Both the position numbers and the translations under genes were made by a program. The notes beneath the pieces were generated by a model. That model saw only the letters and a list, made by a program, of their open reading frames with translations. It had not been told where the DNA came from and made no database searches. A DNA stretch of 64,000 bases. Source: Kondoa subrosea (Eukaryota). Position 1 is the stretch's first letter, and every line of letters begins with the position of its first letter. The stretch is from contig BCIN01000001.1 in the NCBI GenBank assembly GCA_039545335.1, positions 3,943,347 to 4,007,346 on the forward strand. Reading direction: 5' to 3'. Below, in pieces: positions 382-43,164 of this stretch.

Positions 382-499
382 TACAGTCTATTAGAAATCG
401 CACTTCTTCTCACCTTGTACTATTGTGCTCGAATCAGCTTTACATGCATCTGCTTCATTGAGTAGAGCCTTTACACTGTTGTCATCTTTGTCTTGTCTT

Positions 500-1800
500 T
501 TCGACTCAACGACCCTTCTCAGTCACCGCTGGTAATTGCGAAATCGGCTCAAGCTGTGGATTTCGGATCCCTAATGGATGCTGCAGCCACACGAAGAAAG
601 GGACTCGAGCTGTCTCGAATGCTTCGAAAACCTTGTGTACTTGAGCAGCAGCCGTGTGTCCAGCGTCCTTGCCGCTTGGCTCGTCTCAGTGCATACTAAG
701 CTCGCAACGTATTGATATCCCAATCAGATGCCTGCCTTCAAGAAGATTGCTCCTGTACTTTGCAAATTTCCTACGGTCGATTATGCAAATGTGTTATGCA
801 GTCATTCGGCTGTCGCAAATGTGCGCTAAGGCTACTCGCCATCGACTGTCTACCCGTCTGTATCGATTAGGCGCGCCCTGCCCTCAATCGCTTCGCGTGT
901 CATTCCGTTTCCAGCGTATTTACCAGCTTTGGGCTTTCGACTGGTTCGCTCGTCGACTTATCGCAACACTAGCTGGCTTGAGTCAGCCACACAGCTCGAC
1001 CTTGATTGACCTTCGCTTTTCAGAGGGGCTTTCTTCTTTTCCTCATTCGGTAATGTCGAGAAGAAGTCGCTCCTCACCTCTCGGTCCGCCCCGCCTTTCA
1101 GTTGGTCAGCTTCGTTTTGGTCAGATCGATGCTCTAGTTTCAGCTCACTCTCAGCTACGAACGCATCAATTACTTCCGAATAGATCTTTGGCTGACTTCG
1201 GTATTGATAACCTTGTCCCGAGTCCGGTACATCTTGTTATGCCTTGCATAACTTGTGTTGGAAAGACGGAGGTTCTCCAAGGACAGCTCTTCTCTGGGAG
1301 ATGTCTGTTCTGGACAGGTTTTTACTGAACGGGGCGGACCTTAAGACTGTCGCAAGACAGGTCTAAGGGGTGAACAGGACGACATATCTGGCTGAAGTTA
1401 AACTCTCGACTCCGGATGAACAAGCTCCCTACGCATTAATTCGAATCTACAACCGAAGCTGTCGCGTATGAAAGTAGATTCACTTCCAATCTTCACTTTC
1501 CCATGAATTTCTTTGCTGTGCTGTTCAATCTCATCAGTAGGTCACAGTGCCTCTTTAAGATCAGCAGCCGGTTCTCAACGGAGCTGGCTTGATATGAAAC
1601 GCCTTATTGATATGGCCAACTAAATCGTACAGCCCGTTATATGGGATCGTGTGCCATTTCATAGCAATAAACCATGAACCATGAGAGTATAGAAGCCGTG
1701 GTGCAATAGGGGCCAATCGAGAAGACTCCAATCGACCGAGCTGCTTCCCAGACTGAGAAATCCAGTTTCTATTATGCCAACATCGGAACAAAATACTCTC
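500..1800 (+). ncRNA. Candidate large structured non-coding RNA, class unassigned
   Basis: Many nested complementary segments (e.g. 528-540/915-927, 547-553/640-646, 1083-1093/1330-1340, 1055-1061/1404-1410, 1683-1690/1793-1800); G-U pairs favour the + strand; GCAA-capped hairpin at 1347-1360; no convincing coding or splice pattern. Confidence 0.5.
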
Positions 1801-3838: not shown

Positions 3839-5221
3839 ATGTCGACGGACTTCTCGGCTGAAGCCTTCTTCAGCTCCCAATCTGCACCAGACGGCTTAGA
3901 AGAGACCTTGGCTAGTTTAGAGACTTTCATTGCGTTTCATGCACAGCAAGGTCGTAAAGTGGTGCTTGTTACTGTTAGTCAATGTCTCAAGCTTCCTGCT
4001 AGAGTGCTCGAGCCAATGTCTGCTGCTTATAATAGAGTGGAGGAACGACTGTACCGCTGGAACGCAATGTGTAGGCTTTCCCTTCTAAGGGAGTTTCCGC
4101 AAATGCTCAGACTGCTTTTATGACTGAAGTGTGCGGTTTCTCGATAATTTCAGCGCCGGTATATTCATCACCAATGGTTCAAGAGTAGACATAGCTCAAT
4201 CTCTGTGTAGGTACTCGCGGAGCTTCTTCAGCTGAACACTTTCTTCGCACCGGCCAGTATGCAGTGATTTTCATGCATCGCCAATACAGTCTTCAACCTT
4301 TCAGTCGGCATTATTCCCACTCCACACATCCTTTTCTCGACCTTATAGATATAGAAGAGCCGCAACAGCTTCATGCAAGTACTTCTTCTACGCAAAATGG
4401 CTATCTCTTTCCTCTGCTTTCTGGCGTCTCCTCACCTTCTCGTCCATCAACACCTCAAGCAGGTAGCGAATTCACCTTCTCTTCTCCCCCCAAACAATCC
4501 TTTATAACACTCCGAGAACCAAACCTTACCCCTATGTTATCGTTATTGAGGTCTTACAAATTGGTCAAAGCGAAGAATCTATTACATACAGTCACTTTCA
4601 CAACAATACAAGAATACCTCTTCATGCTCAGAGGGGTTAGTCTGTTGATGGCTAAACATCTAGGACGGAATGGATTGTATTACATGGCTGCAGCAGTATC
4701 GGATTTCTTTATACCTCAACAGAGAATGGTGAGCGTTATCAACATGAGTTTGCCAGTTATGTATTTTGACCTGGTGCATGCGCTAGGAGGAGCATAAAAT
4801 CCAGAGCGGCAAAGGATCTTTAATCATAGAAATGGATCAAGTTCCAAAAATTTTGAAACCGTTAGTGCAAGATTGGAGTCAAGAAGCTTTTGTTGTTTCT
4901 TTCAAGGTGAATGAAAACCCTGATAATGAACAAAGCATGATCATTAGCTAAAACAGTATTTACCAGCTTGAAACGGACGATAATTTGCTTATACCGAAAG
5001 CTCGAGGTGCATTAGAAAGATATGGACATCAGCTAGTCATTGGAAATACGTTAAAGAAGCGCAAGCAAGAAGTCGTCTTCGTTGAAACCGCTGGAGAAGG
5101 GCAATATAAGGAAGAATGGGTCAAGCTGTCGAGCACTCAATTGCAAGATGGATCAGAAATGGAAGAACTCATCATTGAGAGGCTTGTATCGAAACATGAA
5201 GCATGGATATCTAGAGCTTGA
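3839..5221 (+). CDS. CAB2: Phosphopantothenate--cysteine ligase (CoA biosynthesis)
   Basis: Spliced motifs VVLVTSGGTTVPLE..VRFLDNFSAGTRG, IFMHRQYSLQPFSRHYSH, YYMAAAVSDFFIP, EHKIQSG, VSFKLETD, YGHQLVIGN. Confidence 0.93.
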
Positions 5222-5490: not shown

Positions 5491-6902
5491 TTAACCCATT
5501 CTAGCGAATGAAAGCATGATAAGAGCTCCAGCCTATGGCGAAAACGAGCGTCATACCTCTGACTTAGATCTGAAGGAGGTCGAATGGTTTGCGAGAAGGT
5601 CATGAGCCTGTGCAAAACAAGGACATGAGAAAGCTGGGGAAAAAAATTCAGCTAATCATGATTATATAGCGCACCTCTTTAAACTCTGGATGTACTTTCG
5701 AGAGACTTCGTCATTGAGCACATGAGCTACCTTGTTGCTGTGGATATTTTCTCTTGCACTAGATTCATAAGTCAGCGACGGCGACGAGAGCTTTAGAAAA
5801 GACAAAGGCTTGCCTGCGCTCGTGAATACCAACCATAGTAACTCCGATAGGCCAAGGAGCGTTTCCGATAGAGAGTTTCAAGTACGCATCGTTTGCTTTA
5901 AGGTATTCTCTAATTTGCATATTGTAAACGATTTCCGCTATTGATGCCAAAACGTCTGGTTCGAGTTCTCTTTTCCTTAGTGATTTAAAGAGAGGTTTGA
6001 GGTATTCGCCGGATTGAACTTGAGTTGCTGCCGCTAGTTTACCCTGAGTTGAGCGACGAACATGTTCTGGTCTGTCGAGCATGAATTGTTCCCATTCTTT
6101 CAGGACTTTCTACAGGGTTGTCGTACAGGCTCAGCATATGTGGAATGTCTGGGAGGGAAGGAAAGAAACATACTTTGAGAGCAAAGTAAATTTGGGGATA
6201 GAGTTTGTGAGGATTCGTTTTGATGAGATCCAAATCCACAATAGTATCACCATCTTCTTTAACTTTCACATCCTTCGTTGCATTATCTTCCACACCAGAG
6301 CTTTCCGCTGACCCGTCACCTCCGTTACCCAAAGCAGCTTCAGCTTTCAATCTTCTGACCACATCACTATCTACTTTCCCTCTTCGGGCCAATTCATCCA
6401 ACACCGCGTTTCCATCATCCATTTCTTTCAGGGCCTTCATAAAATCATTCCTTTGACCTGCAGAAGAAGCATCCCTCGTTCTACCTTGCAACAACTCCAA
6501 AGCTCTTAATCTCAACCTTCGATCTTTATCGGATTCAGCAAACAAACGAATAGGTTGATTTTTAGCTCGAAGTCTTTTAACTGCTTCTTCGTTTGATACT
6601 TGAAACTTCTCTGCTGTATTGCTAGAGTCCGAAGTAGAGAGTAGTTTCTGTACAGCTTCATTTGTAGCTTCAGAAACGGTAGGAACTGGTGATCCAGTTC
6701 TGGCCGTCGTTGGTGGAATAGCAGAAGAAACAGGAGAAGCAGAACGAGAAGCAGCAGCAGCTCTTGAATCCAGCTTTGCCTTTTCCAAATCCACCCGTTT
6801 CACATATTTCGTTGGCTGTTGTTGGTCTGAATCTTCCGATGCTGCTACAGGTGTTGCGGTCTCTTTACGTTTACGCTCGATTTCTGCTTTGAGTCGATTC
6901 AT
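5491..6902 (-). CDS. PRP18: Pre-mRNA splicing factor Prp18
   Basis: PRP4-like motif RLRAKNQPIRLFAESDKDRRLRL; Prp18 domain [51 protein letters not shown]; introns near 3' end. Confidence 0.95.
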
Positions 6903-6972
6903 GTTCGTTCCAAGCAAGTAAGTTGGCCGCGAGGGGTTGACCTGCACCGACCGAGAATATTCAATACAAAAG

Positions 6973-7926
6973 ATGTCTGTAAGTTGTGGCTATCTGTTCT
7001 GCTGTTCACGTATCAAGCAAGCAACGAGAGGAGTCAAGCGAGAGATGCCCAGGGCTGTTGCCCGTTTTCAAAAGCAATAATCGAACTTTGGCCTGCTACT
7101 TGGGAGTCTTAGCTGCATTGTGCCGCTCCTCTGGCCTGCACCTGTACATCCTTCTGCGGCAAATCGAGCACCAAATCAGTCCTACCACAGAAATCTCGCT
7201 TATTTCCCGATCATCCCATTTCAAGCGAATACAGATGAACAGGAGCTGACTTGTATCTTTGTGTGATAGGACTCGGAATCTGATGTTCAACCTAAGAACT
7301 ACGTTCTGCAAACCGCAGGCTTTGATGCCCGATTCGTGAGTTTCCGGGATCCAGCTATGAATGATCCTGTTCTGAGCCTGACTTGGGACTTACAGCCTAA
7401 CACAAACGTTAGTATCTTCTGCTCGTCCTGTCGACTTCGACTCACGAAGCTTCATGGTACTAACAGCAAACTAAACATTGCGTGCGTTTGACGGGTTTAA
7501 AGATTGAGGTTGTTCTCATTCTTTGATCTCCCATATGTACAGTGGCAAAACGTACGCTACTAATCCTCGTATGTCAACATTCAGCTAATCCGTCCAACAG
7601 TATGTAGATTATTACCGATGCATCAACGCAAAGGGCGAGGACTTCAAGCCATGCAAGCAGGTGCGCGACATTCTCTTTCAGCTCAATCTCGAGCTGACGG
7701 AGTCGTCGAATCACAGTTCTTCAGAACTTTCCACTCACTTTGCCCTAATGAATGGATCGGTTCGTTTCTCTCAGCTTATTCCACTGAAGGGATGTACGCT
7801 AAAGGAGGAGCAAACAGCTCGGTTCGATGAACAAAGAGAAGGCGGAAACTTCCCTACTGTAAGCTATATCTTGTCACTTCGCTTGCCAAGCTGATTCTGG
7901 TAACAATGCTGCAGGTTCTGGAATAA
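6973..7926 (+). CDS. COX12: Cytochrome c oxidase subunit 6B, 9 coding exons
   Basis: Spliced product MSDSESDVQPKNYVLQTAGFDARFPNTNQTKHCWQNYVDYYRCINAKGEDFKPCKQFFRTFHSLCPNEWIARFDEQREGGNFPTVLE with twin Cx9C/Cx10C. Confidence 0.93.
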
Positions 7927-8074: not shown

Positions 8075-8824
8075 ATGCTCTGGCAGATGCTCTCGCGACT
8101 TCAGCGAACCGTGCTGCAAACGTACATGCGCTCTAATGCTGTGCATCCTCAAGTCCAGCATTGGCAGGCCTTCCATTCGTCCGTCTTTCTTACCATTCAA
8201 TGTATTTCGTGCTGACTTTCGCCCAGCTTCCCCTGCGTACCAGCTCCCTCACCTCGTTCTACAACAAATAGGCCACGTCGAGCAACTCAATCGCTACAAG
8301 CAAGTCTAATGGAACAACATTACACTCAACCCACAACACCTTCTTTATTTCCCGAATCAGCAGACTCTATCCCATTTGACGCCATAACAGCTTATATCGA
8401 ACTCCGAGATTCTCATCCATTACATTCAAAAGATCCTAGCCCCTTCGCTCAATTATCACCTTTATGCGTAGCCAAAATGTCTTATGATCTAGTTGTGGAT
8501 TCTTTTGAACATTATCCTTTGATCATTCATAGCTTAAGAATGGATTTATTACATTCTCCACTTCCTCAAAGAAGTGCAGGCTTGAAAGCTGTTAAAGAAG
8601 GTTTACAAGTTTTGCAAGGAAAGACGATTGTTCAAGGTGTTCAAGAGAGGATCGAAAGTCAGTTGGAGTGGTTAGCTACTGCTACGGGAAATGTTATGGT
8701 AGAGCAGAAGAGGAGACAAAAGAAGTTTGGGAAAGCATTCAATAGAGTTAGGGAGTTGTTGGAAAGGTCGTTTGAGGAGCAAGAGCGGGAAGAATTGAAG
8801 GTTGCGCTGGGAAGCAAGGTGTAG
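8075..8824 (+). CDS. Hypothetical protein (possible mitochondrial presequence)
   Basis: Long 3' exon ORF 8309-8824 with natural composition; upstream ATG 8075 (MLWQMLSRLQRTVLQ) followed by GT...AG introns; start uncertain. Confidence 0.55.
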
Positions 8825-23761: not shown

Positions 23762-26700
23762 ATGGCAGCTTCTGCTCAAGTATTATCAGAGGCTCGTCGA
23801 AGCTTATCGAGAGCTCCTGACGAGTGAGTTCGACGCGCTGAGGGAGGTAAACGTACTGATTGGGCATCACAGCACAACCTATGTCCATCCTGCTATCGTG
23901 TCTCAAGTCGCTCGAATGCTACAGAAGTTCCCTCACGACCGGGAATATCTTTTGGAAGTCTCGCCTGGCGATTATGGTGTCATTACATGCTTAGCTTGCT
24001 TTGCCGATACACCTTTGACTGCCAATCTCGATTTGCCAGATGGAGGAAGGTCTTTGGGTATTGGCAGCTTTGATGCTTTTATGGCTCATTGTGCCACTCC
24101 TGGTCATGCTAGTCAAAGTCATGATCAAAGACAAGCCGCAAAGCAGAAAGTACGCATTGATCTGACTCTGTATTGGCAAAGTCTCACGAGATTGTACAGG
24201 ACAACATCAACAACTCACGACCAGTCTCAAAACCTCTTAGTCGAACTGCTTCAGCTGAATCTAATGGAACTTTTTCTTCTCGAGTTCCTGCACCTCCTTC
24301 TCCGGCTGCTGCGGCTCGCGCTGCTGCAGAACGACGAGCTGCTGAAGCCGCTTCTCGTCGCAAAATTATTAAGCCAGAAGTGATTTCTGACGATGATGAA
24401 GTAGTCATGACTGCTCGCAACCCTGGTCCATCCTCTGGCGGATCTCGCAAACGTACTTCCGACGCTGTTTCTTCCGATGACGAAGTCTCCTTTGTCAGGA
24501 GCAAGCCTGCCAAACAACCAAAGAAGCCTTCTAGTACCAACAACAATCCTTTAAAAAAAGCAAAGACGGAAGAAGATACTCAATTGACTGGCTTACGCTC
24601 TCCCATGCGTGCTTTATCTCCCAACAAAGCCAGCGAAGCACCGAGAGCTGGCCCTTCTCACGCTCCTGCACCTCCATCAACAGCTGCCGCAGCACCTCGA
24701 GTCGGCCCAGGCGGTCAAGTCTTCTACACCCAATTCGAAGCCAATCAAGCTAGAGATCAAGCTCGAATTCAATTGACAACTGCAACAGCTCAAATAACTA
24801 GTTTCCGACGATTGAGCAAAAACACGCAGAGCAAGGATCTAAAGAAGCACTACAAACAACAAAGACGAGCTCTGGAGGACGTCCTAACTAGAGCTCAGCT
24901 TGCCTACTCTTACGCTTCTAACTGGCGTCCCACAGATGCCCCTGCTCGTCCACCTCCTGCTCAAGTCAATCCTTTCTTGGCGAACAGAGATGTGAAACCC
25001 GATATCAAAGCCAAGAAAGAACCTGGTATGGATTCTATGGACACGGATGCTGAAGATCAAGACAGTGCTGCACGTCAATTTGATACTGATGAAGAGCTGA
25101 ACATGACTATGGAAGGTATTCAAGGTTATCGGGGCACAACCAATAAAGAGTGACTTCAATTTGTCAACCATGGAAGAGAATGCTGATATCTTTCACAGTC
25201 TCGAAGAATTCATTGCCAATGCCTGCGATGCGGCCGAATTCGAGGGAAGCGCCGATGTCAACAAGGCTCGCAAGAATCTAGGTATCGATGGATCAGAGGG
25301 CGATCGTATCGACGGTCTCGCCGAGGAAATGACTTTGATGCCTCATCAGCTTCTAGGTGTCTCGTGGATGCACAATCAGGAAAAGGTATGCCTTCTTTGC
25401 TCTGAATAGCCTTTCACGTTCATAGCAAACTGATTATGATGGCAGGGGAAGACCAAGGGAGGGCTTCTCGGTGAGGATAAACTCCTGTTCTGTGAAGTTT
25501 GCTTACCTTGGTCACAGCTGATCAAATGGGTCTTGGCAAGACTGTTCAGGCTATCGGTACGCTTGTATCTATCGATATTCCTGCAGATGCTTACTTTGTT
25601 CTAGCTTGCATGCTCATGAATCGACCCGAAAAGAAGAAGAAGGACATTCCTCGCACGACCCTCATTCTTGCACCTCTCGCTCTTCTGCAGCAGTGGGCTC
25701 AAGAAATCGAGGACAAGGTAGGCTTTCCACTCTTATGCTGACTTGCGCTCGGCTCACGGTTTGGCCAGACTGAAGCGGATACCTTCAAAGTTCTAATCTA
25801 TCATGGTTCTAACAAGCCAAAGACGAAGAAAGACATTGAAGCTTACGATGTCGTCCTTACTACCTTGGCTACCATGTCCTTGGAATGGGCTCCTGATGAT
25901 GCCTTGGCTAAATCTCAAGCCAAGCGAAAAGACAAGAAAAAGGGCAAAGAATGGGACTCTGGTGATGAGGCAAATTGGAAGCCGGCAAAGAAGAACGGAC
26001 CTCGTACGTGCTGATGCGCAAAATATTCAATCAATGCTTATGCGGAATGATTGTAGTCGTTTCCATCAAGTATCATCGTATTATCATTGACGAGGCGCAC
26101 AACATCAGAAACAAAGTAAGCAGTCGTACTTACTGTTATGTATATATGGCTCATTTCTACATCAGAATACTAGAGTCTCTCGTGCCGCTACTAGGCTGTA
26201 AGTGAAACACTGCCACCATGTATGCAATTGATGTTGACTACTGTATCTTTGTAGTAAGGCGACTTACCGCTGGTGTCTTAGTAGGTCATGCATGCTGATA
26301 GCCTGACTTGTGCTGACACCATGTGAAGGTGGTACTCCCATCATCAATTCGACTGGAGATCTCTTTGGTTTCCTTCGTTTTCTTCGCATGTTTGTGTTTT
26401 CCCCTAGGTATAACAAATCCTCGTTGAGTATCGTCCTCTAGCAATCCTTGGTATGACTGGAAAGTGAGCTCAAAATCTTCCAAAGCCGATCTCTGTACTC
26501 AAAGACCACCATGCAGGAATACAGTTCTCATGTTGTCAAATTCGAGAAAAAGAATCCTAACTACGCTGTCAAAAAGGCTCACGGTATTTTGAAGGTTTGC
26601 ATGCTGAGGTGTGCTTTATTCTGTAGCCTTTCGCAATGGATGCTGATCTGCGAGGTATCAAATAGACGCAAAAAGGATACACTGCTTGATGGTAAACCTT

Positions 26701-29710: not shown

Positions 29711-30535
29711 CTATGCTTCCTCCTGTTCTTCTTCCCCTTCCCATTTCACTAGTATACTGAAATTATTCCGCTTCACACCGGCAAGCACTTCCTCTTTCCT
29801 CCACGACACACCGTCCCAACCAGCTTGACGAGTTCTTTGTACCAGATAATAGCTGAGCTTGGGACTATCATGCTGAGCAACTATCTTTTCGAAACCACAC
29901 GAAGCCAATATGTCTTTGAACCGATCGTGTGTCAAGTAGCGAGAATTCGTCAAGCATGCTAGAGGTAGAACGATAAAGAGGTAGCCTTCTGGCTTGAGGA
30001 AATCGTGTGCTCGTAAAATCATTTGACCTCGTTTTGAAATATCGCCCTCGAAGTTTAGGACCAGCGAAAGAGAGACAACATCGAAAGGTTTAGAAGGAGG
30101 TTCGAAATCCATGAACTGGCCAATACGAGTCAGAATAGTAAGAGATGTAAGATGTAAGGTACCTACATCTGCTTGTATCACCTTTTCCGATCTGGAATTG
30201 ATGTCAATCGAAACGCAATCCACGAGTGAATGTTCCCATTTAGCATATGCTGTGCCTGCGATCGATCCCACATCCAATATTCGTATCCTCTTTCTGTCTC
30301 TCAGGCTTTTGATTAACCATTTCGAACTTTCACCTCCTTGACTTGTCCCTTGTACAGAAGCGTCCTGATAACTTTTCAATCCTCCTAAAGCTTTTTCTTG
30401 CTCTTTAAGTGCTTTTAGCTTGATGGGATCTTTTTCAGTCTCGATTTGCTTCCGTAGAGCATGGAATTTCGAGATTGTCTTTTGCGATTCTGGTACAGCC
30501 GCCTTCTTTGCTCTATTCTTGCCGCCTCGAGCCAT
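29711..30535 (-). CDS. BMT2: 25S rRNA adenine-N1 methyltransferase (Bmt2 family)
   Basis: LGGLKSYQDAS, GGESSKWL, ILDVGS, IDINS, FDVVSLSLVLNF, RGQM, LFIVLPLACLTNSRY, RNNFSI; one in-frame 51-nt intron at 30116-30166. Confidence 0.9.
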   Translation of the reverse strand: MARGGKNRAKKAAVPESQKTISKFHALRKQIETEKDPIKLKALKEQEKALGGLKSYQDASVQGTSQGGESSKWLIKSLRDRKRIRILDVGSIAGTAYAKWEHSLVDCVSIDINSRSEKVIQADVGTLHLTSLTILTRIGQFMDFEPPSKPFDVVSLSLVLNFEGDISKRGQMILRAHDFLKPEGYLFIVLPLACLTNSRYLTHDRFKDILASCGFEKIVAQHDSPKLSYYLVQRTRQAGWDGVSWRKEEVLAGVKRNNFSILVKWEGEEEQEEA

Positions 30536-31213
30536 TTCAGTCCAATATATCGCGGTGTCAGGTTGAGGAATTTAGTTTTCGAAGGTTGTCCGATACCGCG
30601 GTCTTGATGTAGTCTTAAACTGCCAGCTCTGGTTGCTGCAATGAACATACGACCATTATACCAGCTATCCAGGTATAAAAGTAGCGCTGGCAATAGCAAG
30701 ATCAGAGCAAAGCTTCGGAAATCTCAGATATGTGGTCGCTGGTCTTGCTTCGCCTGCTCTCCCAGCGAATGTTCTATATGGATCTCAGTGTCGTCCAAAC
30801 ATTAAGTCGGATCACTTCTTGCATTGCATCGTGTCTGGGCTGCCGATCTCCAATCTGAACAATCCGCTTTGTCTGATTTGTCGCTTCGGTCTGTTCACAG
30901 TGTACGGCGCTTGCACCATTAAAATGTCGCTCCTGTCGACAGCCGATAAACAGACCTTCCCACCTTTCATTTTACCCATCCGAAGTCTTCTTCTGTCACT
31001 TGCGAAGTCAGCTTCCCAGAGTCAGCTGTTAATGAGTTCATCTTCTGTTCGTACTTTTTTCCCTTTCTGGACGAGAAATCCGTGTCTGTCTTCTCAGAGC
31101 AAGCGAGAGAACAAGGCCATTCTCTTTGGCACCCTTCCTTTCAATCCGTTCACTTCCCTATCAATCTCTCCTTGTCAAGAACTTCATAAAGGAACTCATT
31201 GATAGAGCTCGTC

Positions 31214-33482
31214 ATGTCAAGTGTGGCAGACTCAACTCCCTTCAGCCCTTCTCAGGTTGATCCTGCTCTTCTACCCATCCAAGATGTCCTTGCCGATGTG
31301 AGTGATACACTCAGTCGTATCGTCTCTACTGAAGCCTTGTACAATAGCCACTATCAAACTTCTTTGCTGTCGAACCACCTACACCTACAAATGGTCAATC
31401 TATGTCACTTGCCAATCTCAACAACGCACCGCTAGGAGACGATACAAGCTTTCTTGGATCATTTTGGGATGACGATGAGCGTGCTTCGTCATCACGAGAT
31501 CCTAGTCCTGCTGTTCTTGGCTCAAATCATTCAGATGCTGGATCTACTTCTACTTTGAATGACGCTTTCGCATCACACAACGTTTCGACTCTACCCGCTC
31601 ACGATGATGAACACACCGGACAAGTAGAAATACCTGAAGTGGAGCAGCAGCAACACCAAGAAGATTCTTCTGCTATTCCGCCTTCAACAGAATCAGAAGA
31701 AAGATTCCTCATACCTACTGCTCCAGCTTCTTTCATAGTCGGTCCTGGTCCTCGTCTCACTTCAACAGGCAAAGTCTCTCATGCTCGTAAAGTACCTGTC
31801 AATCATATCAAAAGGTAAGCTCTTTTTCTCTGCTTACAAAACATGCATAGCTGAGGGTTGCATTATAGACCCAGGAACGCTTTCATCCTATTCCGAAGTC
31901 ATGCTTGCGCAAATCAATTGGTTCCTACAGAATTGGGTATAACGGATCATCGACATATTTCGAGAATTGTTGGTAATCTATGGAAGAGTTTACCTGCGGA
32001 TGAGAAGAAGATTTGGGAGGAGATGGCAGAGAAAGAAAAGGAGGAACATAGATTGTGAGTTCTGCTGTCCGTAATAGAAAGAGGTACTTAATTGCCTTGT
32101 GTTAGGCAAAACCCAAATTACAAGTAAGGGCTTGAGACAGAACATGTCGATACAACAAGCTGATCACATATTCAGATATCGTCCTGTGTACCGTAGAGAT
32201 GGTGTTGTACGAAGGAGGAAAAAGAAACCGTCGCAAGAGGAAGAAGTAGAAGAGGAAGAAGTAAGCTTCTTCTCTGTCATTGATCGTGTTGTCATCGTGC
32301 TAATTACATCAATAGCGCAAGGCAGAAGTTGTCGCTCGAGTGTTGCTAGAAGGTGGTGAAATCGATGAATCCAATTTGGAGAAAGAGCTTGAAGCTCAAC
32401 GCGAGAAAGATGCTCTCGAAGGTCGTAAGCGTGGTTCCAAAAGTCGTTCTCCAGCTCGTCAACGTCAACGCCAACGCAGCCGTTCTACTGCTGGCGATGA
32501 TGAAGAGGAAATTGGCCATAACCCATACCCTGCCGGTGGGCGAAGAAGTCGGAGACCTCGCAATCACGTCTCGTACGATGTTGATATCGGAGATGCTACG
32601 TTGGATAATATCAACATCTTTCCTGGAGAAAGCGATATGTTTTATGGTCAAGGAATGCAACCGTTTCACGAGGGGCAATACAATCAAAACTATTATTATG
32701 GCCAAGAAATTTCTATGCCTACCAATTACGATGTTTCTGGTCAATATCGTCTACCAAGTCCCAACAACTATAATCATAATGGAGCTGTTTCACTCGATTA
32801 TCTTCCTGCGACTCCTCGTACATTTGCTATGCAGCAACACCAACAATCAATCCAGAACAGAATGCGTCCGAACGATGGTTTCGGTTCTCCGACGCGTGGT
32901 GCTATGGATTTGCCAGTCAATCCAATGCTCAGCCCAATGAAGGATCAATTTGGCAACTACCTGAACGGGCCTCAGACTTCTTTCCCTCAGACTTCTTTCG
33001 GTCCTCCTCCTACCTCATTCGGTGCACCGCCTACAGCGTACGAGAACAATATCTTTGGTAATCGTGCTGTTTCTTTGGACGCAGATGGTCGTCTCAACTT
33101 GCCTTCGCCCCGGTCGTTTTCTGCTCCTCATCAAGACCCAATGTGGCAGCCACAGTCAAACAACTACTACGATCAACATACAGCTGTTCCACATGGTATG
33201 CAAACGGACATCAACAGACTTTTGAACGATCAAGCTACTTCTGTTCCCTTCTCTGCCTTTGGCGAAATGGCCGCCGGTCCTGCTCACATGCAATACAATG
33301 GAGTTCAGAATGAAGAAATCGCTTTGCAACCTTCTCAAGAAGTCCAATATGTCTATCTTTCTCGAGAACAGGCGATGGACGCTCGTTTAGTAGAAGAGAT
33401 TCGAAGTCAAGGCTTCGGTATTACCTATCAAGTGCCTTCGGAAGAGCTGGGCCACAACGGAATGATTCCGATGCAAGCATAA
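31214..33482 (+). CDS. MATA-type HMG-box transcription factor
   Basis: HIK-RPRNAFILFRS...DHRHISRIVGNLWKSLPADEKKIWEEMAEKEKEEH..NPNYK-YRP; long Q/P/N-rich C-terminal region. Confidence 0.9.
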
Positions 33483-35326: not shown

Positions 35327-36090
35327 GGTTGATTGAAGAGGTAGAGGGAGACGGAGAGTGAGTTGAAAGATGGGGAAAGAGAGAGGAGAAGAGGAGCTCC
35401 GCGCGTCCGACTTTCAACATCGAGAATCAGCCTGATTTCCCATAAGGGTGAGGGGAAAAGGACCTGATTTTAGGTGGACAAACTCGACCTTGAGCTTAAA
35501 ATACCTTAACTAGGAGAAAATCCATCTACGAATTCACCCGCTCCAGCAAAGTAGCGTGCCCGTGAAGAAACGGCAGACCTGTAACCATCCGATGCATACG
35601 TCGGGGCAGCCTTGACACAATCGGATGGATACAGGACATCGGACAGACCACATGACGAAGTGCTGCCAGATAGCGCGGGCCTCGTGAGATCTCTTGCAGA
35701 CACTAAAGGCTTTTTAGGCAAGAACAGGAACTTGTGCGGGATTGCGAATTATGCAGGTGTTGACCGGATAAGACAGGATCAAACGAGAGTAGCCCAAGTC
35801 GTCTGATCACGCGACGAGTGCTAGCACTGCACTCGAGTCTCGGTTGAAATGGAATGGAAGATTTCAAACAATTTCCAATGCATGTACATTCAATGTAATT
35901 CTGAAGGTTTATTTGCTCTGATGTGACTCGCCAGGCGAGAGGTCCACACGTATGACTAGAGACGGAGAACCAGCTCACCTGCATATTTCTTGTGTTACAT
36001 TTCGAAGACCGACAGTAGATATACTAGTAGATGTTCTTTTTCAAGAAAGAGACGAGAGCGGGCTTGCTCTTGATCCACGACCATTGAGCC

Positions 36091-41996: not shown

Positions 41997-43164
41997 ATGC
42001 AAGCTATCAACGCAAGGCAGACTGTAGCAAGAGGAAGGATATGTTGCTGTGCTGCGAGGATGATGAATGGAAGAAGAGCTGCAAGTAATAGTAGTGCGAA
42101 AGTGAAAGGTGGAAAGAAAGGTGCAGGTCAAATAAATGGGAAGCAGGAGAAAGTTTTGGTCATGCCTTTACAGCAGGCTGCTACAACCCTCAAGGTCGGC
42201 CTTTCAAAGTGTTCGCTGTGTCATGCAGCTTACATTTTTAGAAATGGTCGACAGGCCTTGAATCCTCAATCAACTTCTTGGGCAGCTTATGAACTCACTA
42301 TCAATACCAGACTCAACACATCACAGAATCTAAACGCAGTCAGAGGTCGAATCTTTCCTCCCTTTTCAATTTCTGGTAATCGTTTCAAGGGAGAAAAGAT
42401 CTTAGTTTTCGCTCCTGAGGGTCCTGCTGCTGAAAGCGCTCGTGCAGCTGGTGCAGATTACGTAGGAGGAGAAGATTTAGTAGCTCAAGTGCGTTGCTTG
42501 CGTTCGTAAAATCTGTCCAGGCTTATACGTTTGTGCAATAACGTACAGCTTCTGGATGGAACAATCGAACCTACTCGAGTTATCGCACATCCTTCTATGC
42601 TAGCTATGATAGGACGATCAGGTTTAGCTCCCTTCTTGGGTCCCAAAGGTCTTATGCCTTCGACGAGAAGAGGAACGGTCACTACGGAATTAGCTAATGC
42701 GATACAAGAAGCTAGAGGTGGTTTGGATTGGCGGGCTGATGGTCGAGGAGTGGTCAGGAGTCGTACGTACTTGTCTTGGGCTTAGCTGTATATCAGCTTA
42801 GCCATTGTACTTGGGTACAGGAATTGGTCGAGTAAGCTTGACAACAGTTTCCTTTGCTGAAGCCTAATTCTCATGTTGTGTCTAGTTGCATCTTCCGCCT
42901 GAATCACTTGAAGCCAATATCAGACTATTGGTATCAGAAGTAGCAGATCTAGCAGGTGGATCAGGTGGTCAAGGTGCAGCAGCGATTGCAGCTTCTTCTT
43001 TTTCAGCTACAACTCCTTCCCCCAAGACTGTAAAGAAAGGTCAGCCTTTCAGGGGTCTCTGTAGTATACATTACTGACACCCTTCTGGTTTGATAGGCGC
43101 TGTCACTAGTGTTTTACTCAGTAGTACACAAGGACCTAGTATTCAGCTAGCGGATGTGATATGA
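41997..43164 (+). CDS. MRPL1: Mitochondrial large-subunit ribosomal protein L1
   Basis: Arg-rich presequence; [54 protein letters not shown]. Confidence 0.9.

What the first reader, a model, noticed from the sequence alone, without database searches (positions are those of the whole stretch)
1022..1431. Extensively base-paired ~400-nt RNA domain in an intergenic gap
Seen, from outside in: GGGGCTT/AAGCTCC (1025-1031/1422-1428), TCATTCGG/CCGGATGA (1043-1050/1412-1419), GTCGAGA/TCTCGAC (1055-1061/1404-1410), GTCG-TCCT/AGGA-CGAC, TCACCTC/GGGGTGA, a perfect 11-bp GGTCCGCCCCG/CGGGGCGGACC (1083-1093/1330-1340), TTCAGT/ACTGAA. Branch arms: GTCAGC/GCTGAC, AACCTTGTCC/GGACAGGTT (1209-1218/1312-1320), GTTATGC/GCATAAC, and a CTGTC-GCAA-GACAG GNRA hairpin (1347-1360). 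All nest consistently and imperfect pairs are mostly G-U on the + strand. This fits a selected RNA structure better than a DNA palindrome. I could not match it to snRNA, SRP, RNase P/MRP or rRNA motifs. Inference: part of a large unannotated ncRNA; telomerase RNA is one candidate by size and architecture.
Basis: partly seen in the sequence, partly recalled or inferred. Interest (0 to 1): 0.8.

Follow-up and report, generated by a model that had tools for sequence, protein, structure and literature searches.

The report
Stable orphan RNA fold between genes
A stretch of about 380-410 bases between two fungal genes can fold on itself much more tightly than chance predicts, but it has no relatives, no RNA data and no match to any known RNA family (telomerase RNA included), so its role stays open.

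Summary
The pairings are real and sit at the stated coordinates. The + strand of 1043-1420 folds at -142.5 kcal/mol, z -5.8 against dinucleotide shuffles and -6.0 against shuffles that keep local composition. It is the most stable closed 300-420 nt domain on either strand of the 64-kb window; the 15 next-best domains reach only z -1.3 to -3.8. The + strand is mildly favoured. The region looks non-coding and is single-copy in the source assembly, except for a 51-nt piece of the 3' arm that recurs once elsewhere. It matches no Rfam family.

The telomerase RNA idea is not supported. No template for TTAGGG-type repeats lies anywhere in the 1.6-kb gap, and there is no P6.1-type hairpin.

The two tests that would settle it, covariation and expression, could not be run. 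The host is a basidiomycete whose nearest sequenced relatives share only about 40-47% protein identity. No syntenic or homologous DNA was found, and no RNA run is listed.

Best reading (about 0.4): a folded domain of an unannotated + strand non-coding transcript. Rivals: a hairpin-RNA locus born by inverted duplication, a decayed DNA repeat, a statistical extreme, or an orphan 91-codon gene.

The parts
1043..1420 (+). Core of the folded domain (378 nt): an interrupted closing rod, a three-way junction, two inner arms and a side hairpin
   Evidence: MFE -142.5 kcal/mol, z -5.82. Block-shuffle z -6.0 and -6.1. Top-ranked closed domain in the window.
1022..1431 (+).
   Evidence: MFE -150.9 kcal/mol, z -4.82. 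The outer helix forms with U1426 bulged.
1066..1093 (+). 5' strand of the inner closing rod (GUCG, UCC, UCACCUCU, then the perfect 11-mer GGUCCGCCCCG)
   Evidence: Pairs with 1330-1340 and 1366-1383. Kept in the MFE and in the centroid in the 410-, 378- and 991-nt contexts.
1330..1383 (+). 3' strand of the inner closing rod, interrupted by side hairpin C
1104..1197 (+). Arm A: a 94-nt imperfect hairpin
   Evidence: On its own -26.4 kcal/mol, z -2.40, 6 of 200 shuffles as good; - strand z -1.85.
1198..1328 (+). Arm B: a closing stem (1198-1203/1323-1328 and 1209-1218/1312-1320) and a four-way junction with hairpins 1223-1262, 1268-1278 and 1280-1311
   Evidence: On its own -44.0 kcal/mol, z -2.65, 2 of 200; - strand z -2.02. 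Hairpin 1280-1311 is absent from the centroid.
1344..1364 (+). Side hairpin C, capped by a GCAA (GNRA-type) tetraloop
   Evidence: In the MFE and the centroid.
1332..1382 (+). 51-nt piece of the 3' arm (including hairpin C) with a second copy elsewhere in the same genome
   Evidence: A 939-nt contig of about single-copy depth matches only this piece, with 5 differences. The rest of 455-1990 is single-copy at 80% likeness or more.
645..1328 (+). 227-codon stop-free frame crossing the 5' two-thirds of the fold; its first ATG inside the fold is at 1053 (91 codons). Judged non-coding.
   Evidence: No Pfam match. No homologue among near-length proteins. One marginal hit, E 3.2e-4, outside the fold among 1.84 billion representatives. 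Codon score 0.2-3.0 here against 5.4-8.1 in the flanking exons.
1002..1022 (+). Branch-site-like TTGAC, a pyrimidine run and CAG just before the fold: a possible intron 3' end. Read by eye.
   Evidence: Sequence. The 12-mer TTGATTGACCTT recurs at 2373-2384, in what I read by eye as an intron of the next gene; 2 matches against 0.55 expected, and 11 of 100 shuffles give 2 or more. Not significant.

Best explanation
The region is a folded domain of an unannotated non-coding RNA read from the + strand. That RNA is either its own RNA polymerase II unit inside the 1.6-kb gap, or an extension of one of the two + strand neighbour transcripts.

Once transcribed, positions 1043-1420 would close into a rod of roughly 45 interrupted base pairs. 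The rod carries a GNRA-capped side hairpin and ends in a junction with two arms: a 94-nt hairpin and a 131-nt arm with a four-way junction. A closed, branched body of this kind most plausibly serves as a protein-binding scaffold, or as a nuclease-resistant core that defines a stable processed RNA.

Shown here: the fold potential, its rarity within the window, the lack of coding signal, the near-single-copy state and the absence from known RNA families. Inferred: that it is transcribed, the strand, and any function.
For: - Stability: z -5.82 and -6.0/-6.1 with block shuffles.
- Rarity: rank 1 of all closed 300-420 nt domains on both strands, more than 2 z units beyond the 15 next-best.
- The sub-domains are each stable alone: z -2.40, -2.65 and -3.05.
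- The core helices persist in a 991-nt context.
- The + strand is favoured: z -5.82 against -4.24; -6.0 against -5.0; -3.35 against -1.42 for 700-1690; G-U pairs 16 against 8; G.U against A.C 10 to 3. Both neighbouring genes also lie on +.
- The arms are not significantly alike as DNA.
- There is no other copy in the window.
- The full length occurs once in the source assembly.
- Non-coding.
Against: - There is no evidence of a transcript and no covariation test; both could not be run.
- The - strand also folds far better than shuffles (z -4.2 to -5.0), so a DNA-level origin of the complementarity is not excluded.
- A 51-nt piece of the 3' arm is duplicated elsewhere, which points to DNA-level copying.
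- The outer helices have competing local hairpins.
- The strand-bias counts are small: 10 against 3 and 16 against 8.
- The stretch was picked because it looked paired, so some selection bias remains even after the window-wide control.
Confidence: 0.4

Rival explanations
1. A hairpin-RNA or small-RNA precursor locus made by an inverted duplication of a fragment of another locus. The 3' arm is a copy of sequence that also exists elsewhere, the 5' arm is its decayed inverted copy, and the transcript would be diced into small RNAs aimed at the other locus.
For: The 51 nt at 1332-1382 recur in a separate contig of about single-copy depth, with 5 differences. The 5' strand 1066-1093 pairs with that same piece. 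Both strands fold well.
Against: The fold is branched, with two long inner arms and a four-way junction, not one long hairpin. The duplicated piece is only 51 of about 380 nt. The outer arms are not significantly alike as DNA. No small-RNA data exist here.
Confidence: 0.12
2. A functionless relic of an old inverted repeat or transposon fragment; the complementarity is left over from DNA-level events.
For: Both strands are much more stable than shuffles. Two short pieces of the gap (382-454 and 1332-1382) have second copies in the genome.
Against: No second full or near-full copy at 80% likeness or more in about 18.8 million letters of source contigs, and none in the window. No terminal inverted repeat of significant DNA similarity. 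No target-site duplication seen at 1015-1024 and 1429-1438 (by eye). G.U exceeds A.C 10 to 3, where neutral decay predicts parity.
Confidence: 0.15
3. A statistical extreme: an ordinary intergenic sequence that happens to fold well, and was picked out because it looked paired.
For: No orthogonal support of any kind. The margin in energy per nt over the next domains is small (-0.378 against -0.367 and -0.357). An 11-bp perfect complement within 400 nt is expected a few times per 64 kb (my estimate).
Against: z -5.8 to -6.1 against a best of -3.8 among the 15 next-best boundary-optimised domains. Three sub-domains are each stable on their own.
Confidence: 0.15
4. An orphan small-protein gene (ATG 1053 to stop 1326-1328, 91 codons) behind the CT-rich tract 1010-1047, with AATAAA at 1665-1670; the fold would be incidental or a translational control.
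For: It is the first ATG after a CT-rich tract, with A at -3. It lies in a stop-free frame of 227 codons.
Against: No Pfam match and no homologue. Codon score is 0.2-3.0, in the non-coding range. The + strand here is A-poor, which makes long open frames likelier (my estimate).
Confidence: 0.08
5. Part of the telomerase RNA of this fungus.
For: Only size and a branched junction with a long hairpin followed by a 4-bp hairpin (1223-1262, 1268-1278). In Ustilago maydis the telomerase RNA is cut from the 3' UTR of an mRNA (PMC9564094, abstract and passages), and this region lies downstream of a + strand gene.
Against: - No run of repeat length plus 2 bases (exact), or plus 3 (1 mismatch), for 7 tried repeat units on either strand of 382-1990, apart from chance-level near-matches for two non-canonical units.
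- CCCTAAC occurs once in the whole window, at 8747. TAACCCTAA with up to 1 mismatch: 0 of 64 kb.
- TAACCCC only at 4633 and 9823.
- The hairpin 1268-1278 has a 3-nt GUU loop, not the 5-nt NUNGN loop (PMC3592445 passages), and the junction is four-way.
- No Rfam telomerase family at E up to 10.
Confidence: 0.02

Closest known systems
Telomerase RNA distal domain (CR4/5, the three-way junction with P5, P6, P6.1) of vertebrates, filamentous ascomycetes and Ustilago
   Same: A closing stem, then a long hairpin, then a 4-bp hairpin (1209-1320, 1223-1262, 1268-1278). The host RNA would be several hundred nt long and lie downstream of a same-strand gene, as UmTER does.
   Different: No template anywhere in the gap. 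The loop is 3 nt (GUU), not NUNGN. A third hairpin makes the junction four-way. No Rfam telomerase match.
RNase P / RNase MRP RNA architecture
   Same: The 5' and 3' ends are closed by long-range helices, followed by a first long hairpin and then a domain with a four-way junction. This topology comparison is recalled, not computed.
   Different: No match to the RNaseP_nuc or RNase_MRP models at E up to 10. The recalled CR-I-like 8-mer occurs in this region only with one mismatch, on the - strand at the wrong end of the fold, and at chance frequency in the window (56 matches against 56.6 expected).
Young hairpin-RNA / MIRNA-type loci born by inverted duplication of a target fragment (a model known from plants; recalled)
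   Same: One arm shares a 51-nt, roughly 90% identical piece with another locus of the same genome. The opposite arm is complementary to that piece.
   Different: The shape is branched, not a single long hairpin. The shared piece is short. No small-RNA evidence.
MITE / foldback transposons
   Same: A self-complementary DNA of a few hundred bases lying between genes.
   Different: Single full-length copy. No significant terminal inverted repeat. No target-site duplication seen. Helices are short and interrupted.

Membership tests
Telomerase RNA | A template of about 1.5 copies of the C-strand telomere repeat | tested here: not met
   Searches find none for CCCTAA, CCCCTAA, CCCCCTAA, CCTAA, CCCTAAA, CCCTGAA or CCCTCAA on either strand of 382-1990, apart from chance-level 1-mismatch hits for two non-canonical units. 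Caveat: this organism's own telomere repeat is not known to me.
Telomerase RNA | A P6.1 hairpin: 4-bp stem with a 5-nt NUNGN loop (4-5 nt in S. pombe) next to P6 (PMC3592445 passages) | tested here: not met
   The only candidate, 1268-1278, is GGAG-GUU-CUCC with a 3-nt loop, in a four-way junction.
Telomerase RNA | A template-adjacent pseudoknot with triple helix; binding to TERT | not testable with these tools
   The folding tools used predict no pseudoknots, and no template exists to anchor a search.
Any Rfam family (snRNAs, SRP, RNase P/MRP, snoRNAs, ribozymes, telomerase RNAs) | A covariance-model match at the family's gathering score | tested here: not met
   0 matches at gathering score in 64 kb. 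At E up to 10 only SNORD77, SNORD57 and mir-4841, at 14.8-18.9 bits against gathering scores of 35-100.
MITE / foldback element | Multiple copies in the genome | tested here: not met
   One full-length record per run. Only the 73-nt and 51-nt pieces recur at 80% likeness or more. No copy in the window.
MITE / foldback element | Terminal inverted repeats with clear DNA similarity, flanked by a target-site duplication | tested here: not met
   Arm alignment z 0.67, with 81 of 300 shuffles as good. The flanks show no direct repeat (by eye).
Hairpin-RNA / microRNA-like precursor | Small RNAs of discrete size mapping to the arms | not testable with these tools
   No RNA run is listed for this organism.
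Protein-coding gene | Homologues, a domain match, or the codon usage of the genome | tested here: not met
   The - strand frames were tested against Pfam only.
Structured non-coding RNA (generic) | A fold more stable than chance on the transcribed strand | tested here: met
Structured non-coding RNA (generic) | Compensatory base changes in relatives; a discrete transcript | not testable with these tools
   No homologous DNA was found. No genome is held. No RNA run is listed.

The most novel reading that the evidence does not exclude
This is the core of a previously undescribed large structured non-coding RNA of an isolated basidiomycete lineage: a closed, branched scaffold of about 380 nt with a GNRA-capped side hairpin. 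It belongs to no catalogued family, and one 51-nt module is reused in a second RNA of the same genome.
Probability: 0.25. Interest if true: 0.6.

Novelty: new member of a known kind. Interest (0 to 1): 0.3.

Why it matters
Few large structured non-coding RNAs are known in fungi beyond the universal ones, and early-branching basidiomycete lineages are barely explored. If this fold proved to be transcribed and conserved, it would be a new family to characterise.

As it stands it is a well-controlled thermodynamic candidate only. The practical result is that the telomerase RNA idea can be dropped. The locus is worth a northern blot or RNA-seq look only if someone already works on this organism.

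Tried and rejected
- Expression: no RNA holder is listed. Only two DNA runs of one sample, probably the source, hold the stretch.
- Whole genome: none is held.
- Relatives by DNA or pseudo-protein seeds: the metagenome scan with the 227-codon frame matched 260 pattern stretches, and none was confirmed.
- Relatives by synteny: 80 metagenome loci around PRP18 (best 84% identity over part of the exon, mostly short contigs) hold no neighbour of our window and no DNA like 500-1800 by blastn or nhmmer.
- A covariance model of the 59-nt module found only itself in 543,170 bases; the other match had E 9.3.
- The genome contigs pattern scan for the 11-bp stem pair gave 25 hits, all in bacterial DNA of 67-80% G+C that shares only the pattern itself: chance.
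- The viral-contig scan for hairpin C gave 0.
- Earlier findings of this scan: nothing for this genome, its relatives or this sequence. The 8 notes returned by words concern phage and bacterial RNAs and were not used.
- tRNA: none.
- The bacterial promoter/terminator scan does not apply to a fungus.
- A simple intron-signal scan gave nothing coherent.
- The open-frame gap map was uninformative because exons are short.
- I first took the downstream gene for a Cu/Zn-SOD-like protein by eye. Pfam and PDB sequence searches of single exons gave no support, so the label is dropped.
- Literature: three full-text searches found no telomerase RNA or large structured ncRNA described for Pucciniomycotina. 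That is three searches, not proof of absence.

Full report
**Setting.** The window is eukaryotic. No prokaryote-type whole genome is held for it. Exons with short introns are visible. Conserved exons find their best named relatives among basidiomycetes:
- A Bmt2 methyltransferase exon (Pfam E 9.4e-50) reaches 39-47% identity to Rhodosporidiobolus, Rhodotorula, Sporobolomyces and Malassezia; 48 proteins were listed.
- The PRP18 N-terminal exon reaches at most 46%, with Austropuccinia, Pseudohyphozyma and Rhodotorula among the named hits; 385 proteins passed and 120 were listed.

So the host is a basidiomycete, probably near Pucciniomycotina, with no close sequenced relative in those collections.

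The finding lies in a 1.6-kb gap. Upstream, a + strand gene ends at 381 with an RGG-rich tail. Downstream, an unnamed + strand multi-exon gene has its ATG at 1995. Codon scores are 5.4-8.1 in those exons against -1.6 to 3.0 for the best frame across 900-1500.

**The observation.** 10 of the 11 appear in the computed minimum-energy folds. The eleventh, TTCAGT/ACTGAA, loses to an alternative partner.
- The best-bounded core, 1043-1420, folds at -142.5 kcal/mol, z -5.82, with 0 of 100 dinucleotide shuffles as good.

I ran two controls against artefact. First, the left arm is pyrimidine-rich and the right arm purine-rich, so I shuffled only within 25- or 50-nt blocks. The z stayed at -6.0 and -6.1, with 0 of 120 shuffles as good in each case.

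Second, the stretch was chosen by eye, so I ran a local-fold scan (span up to 420 nt) over both strands of all 64 kb. This domain ranks first by energy per nucleotide. The 15 next-best, equally boundary-optimised domains give z of -1.3 to -3.8. The margin in raw energy per nt is small (-0.378 against -0.367), but the margin in z exceeds 2 units.

The sub-domains are each stable on their own: 1104-1197 z -2.40, 1198-1328 z -2.65, 1022-1103 z -3.05. The 3' flank 1341-1431 alone is not (z -0.45). The inner rod, arm A, hairpin 1223-1262 and the GCAA hairpin survive in the centroid and in a 991-nt context. The outermost helices compete with local hairpins.

**Strand.** The - strand also beats its shuffles, but every comparison leans to +.

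| Measure | + strand | - strand |
|---|---|---|
| z, 1022-1431, dinucleotide shuffles | -4.82 | -4.36 |
| z, 1043-1420, dinucleotide shuffles | -5.82 | -4.24 |
| z, 1043-1420, 25-nt block shuffles | -6.0 | -4.97 |
| z, 700-1690 (only 20 shuffles) | -3.35 | -1.42 |
| G-U pairs in the MFE | 16 | 8 |

In arm alignments, G.U oppositions outnumber A.C by 10 to 3. These counts are small. They fit an RNA read from +, the strand of both neighbours, but they do not prove it.

**RNA structure or DNA repeat?** Aligned as DNA, the outer arms are no more alike than shuffled arms (z 0.67; 81 of 300 shuffles score as well). The complementarity is spread over helices of 3-11 bp separated by bulges. No part of 382-1990 recurs in the window.

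Laying the contigs of the two DNA runs that hold the stretch (one sample, probably the source) at 80% likeness or more shows the whole gap once per run, with 0 differences. There are only two extra pieces:
- 382-454, just after the upstream stop codon: 73 nt with 6 differences.
- 1332-1382: 51 nt with 5 differences, in a 939-nt contig of about single-copy depth.

So this is not a multi-copy element. But the 3' strand of the inner rod, together with the GCAA hairpin, does have one second copy elsewhere. This is the one fact pointing to DNA-level copying, and it motivates the inverted-duplication rival. The five differences were not listed by the tool, so I could not see whether they keep the hairpin paired.

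**Coding?**
- A 227-codon open frame (645-1328, +) crosses the fold. Its first ATG inside the fold is at 1053 (91 codons).
- It has no Pfam match.
- It has no homologue among near-length proteins; 445 candidates were scored and none passed.
- Among 1.84 billion representatives there is one marginal hit (E 3.2e-4, 27% identity, a 1321-aa protein with 12 matched stretches) that aligns to residues 23-65, outside the fold.
- Four - strand frames have no Pfam match; they were not searched in the large collections.
- Codon scores are in the non-coding range.

**Known RNA families.** Rfam gives nothing at gathering score in the whole window. At E up to 10 there are only snoRNA and miRNA noise matches, far below their thresholds. 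There is no tRNA.

**Telomerase RNA.** The Ustilago RNA carries the template UAACCCUAA and is cut from an mRNA 3' UTR (PMC9564094, abstract and passages). Cryptococcus and Kwoniella telomeres are TAAC(4,5), and the Kwoniella telomerase RNA is still unidentified (PMC11185503, passages).

Neither strand of 382-1990 holds a template-length run for any of 7 repeat units tried. The exceptions are one 1-mismatch match for CCTAA and three overlapping 1-mismatch matches for CCCTGAA, at the tandem AACCATG at 1670-1684. Window-wide searches put the nearest canonical fragments thousands of bases away.

The P6.1 rule is a 4-bp stem with a 5-nt NUNGN loop (PMC3592445, passages). It is not met by GGAG-GUU-CUCC at 1268-1278, and the junction is four-way. 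I rate telomerase RNA at about 0.02. The remaining doubt is that I do not know this organism's telomere repeat.

**What could not be done.** Covariation and expression are the decisive tests, and both were out of reach.
- No RNA holder is listed.
- The metagenome scan seeded from the region itself confirmed none of 260 pattern stretches.
- 80 loci around PRP18 show no synteny and no similar DNA.
- A covariance model of the duplicated module finds only itself.
- Pattern scans of bacterial and viral collections gave only chance hits or none.

**Verdict.** The general reading, a selected RNA structure in an unannotated non-coding RNA, remains the best single explanation at about 0.4, but it rests on thermodynamics and weak strand bias alone. 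The rivals:
- A hairpin-RNA locus from an inverted duplication: 0.12.
- A functionless DNA relic: 0.15.
- A statistical extreme: 0.15.
- An orphan 91-codon gene: 0.08.
- Telomerase RNA: 0.02.

Three full-text searches found nothing comparable described for this fungal group.

Noticed in passing
window 382-454: The first 73 nt after the upstream gene's stop codon recur, with 6 differences, in a 470-nt contig of about 1.7-fold depth. The contig also runs on upstream of 382, so the upstream gene's 3' end probably has a paralogous or repeated copy.
   Followed up: partly
window 785-793, 815-823, 809-821, 1346-1355, 1458-1470: GCAAATGTG occurs twice, 30 nt apart. A (G/A)CTGTCGC(A/G) core recurs at 809, 1346 (inside hairpin C) and 1458. 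810-831 and 1347-1368 are 73% alike over 22 nt. These may be a promoter or binding motif, or chance.
   Followed up: no
window 1670-1684: A tandem AACCATG x2.1, just after an AATAAA at 1665-1670. It has a template-like shape, but the repeat it would specify is unlike any telomere repeat I can recall.
   Followed up: partly
window 35330-35703 (+), 23899-24204 (+), 31476-31786 (-), 42729-43052 (+): These are the next most unusual local folds in the window, with z -3.3 to -3.8. I did not examine them further.
   Followed up: no
window 5765-6989 (-) and 29711-30571 (-): PRP18 splicing-factor exons (Pfam Prp18 E 9.7e-39 and a PRP4-like motif) and a Bmt2 25S rRNA methyltransferase exon (E 9.4e-50). 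Both are at most 47% identical to any listed protein, which marks an isolated lineage.
   Followed up: partly
window 96: A single N inside the upstream gene's RGG-rich tail; the source is a draft assembly.
   Followed up: no
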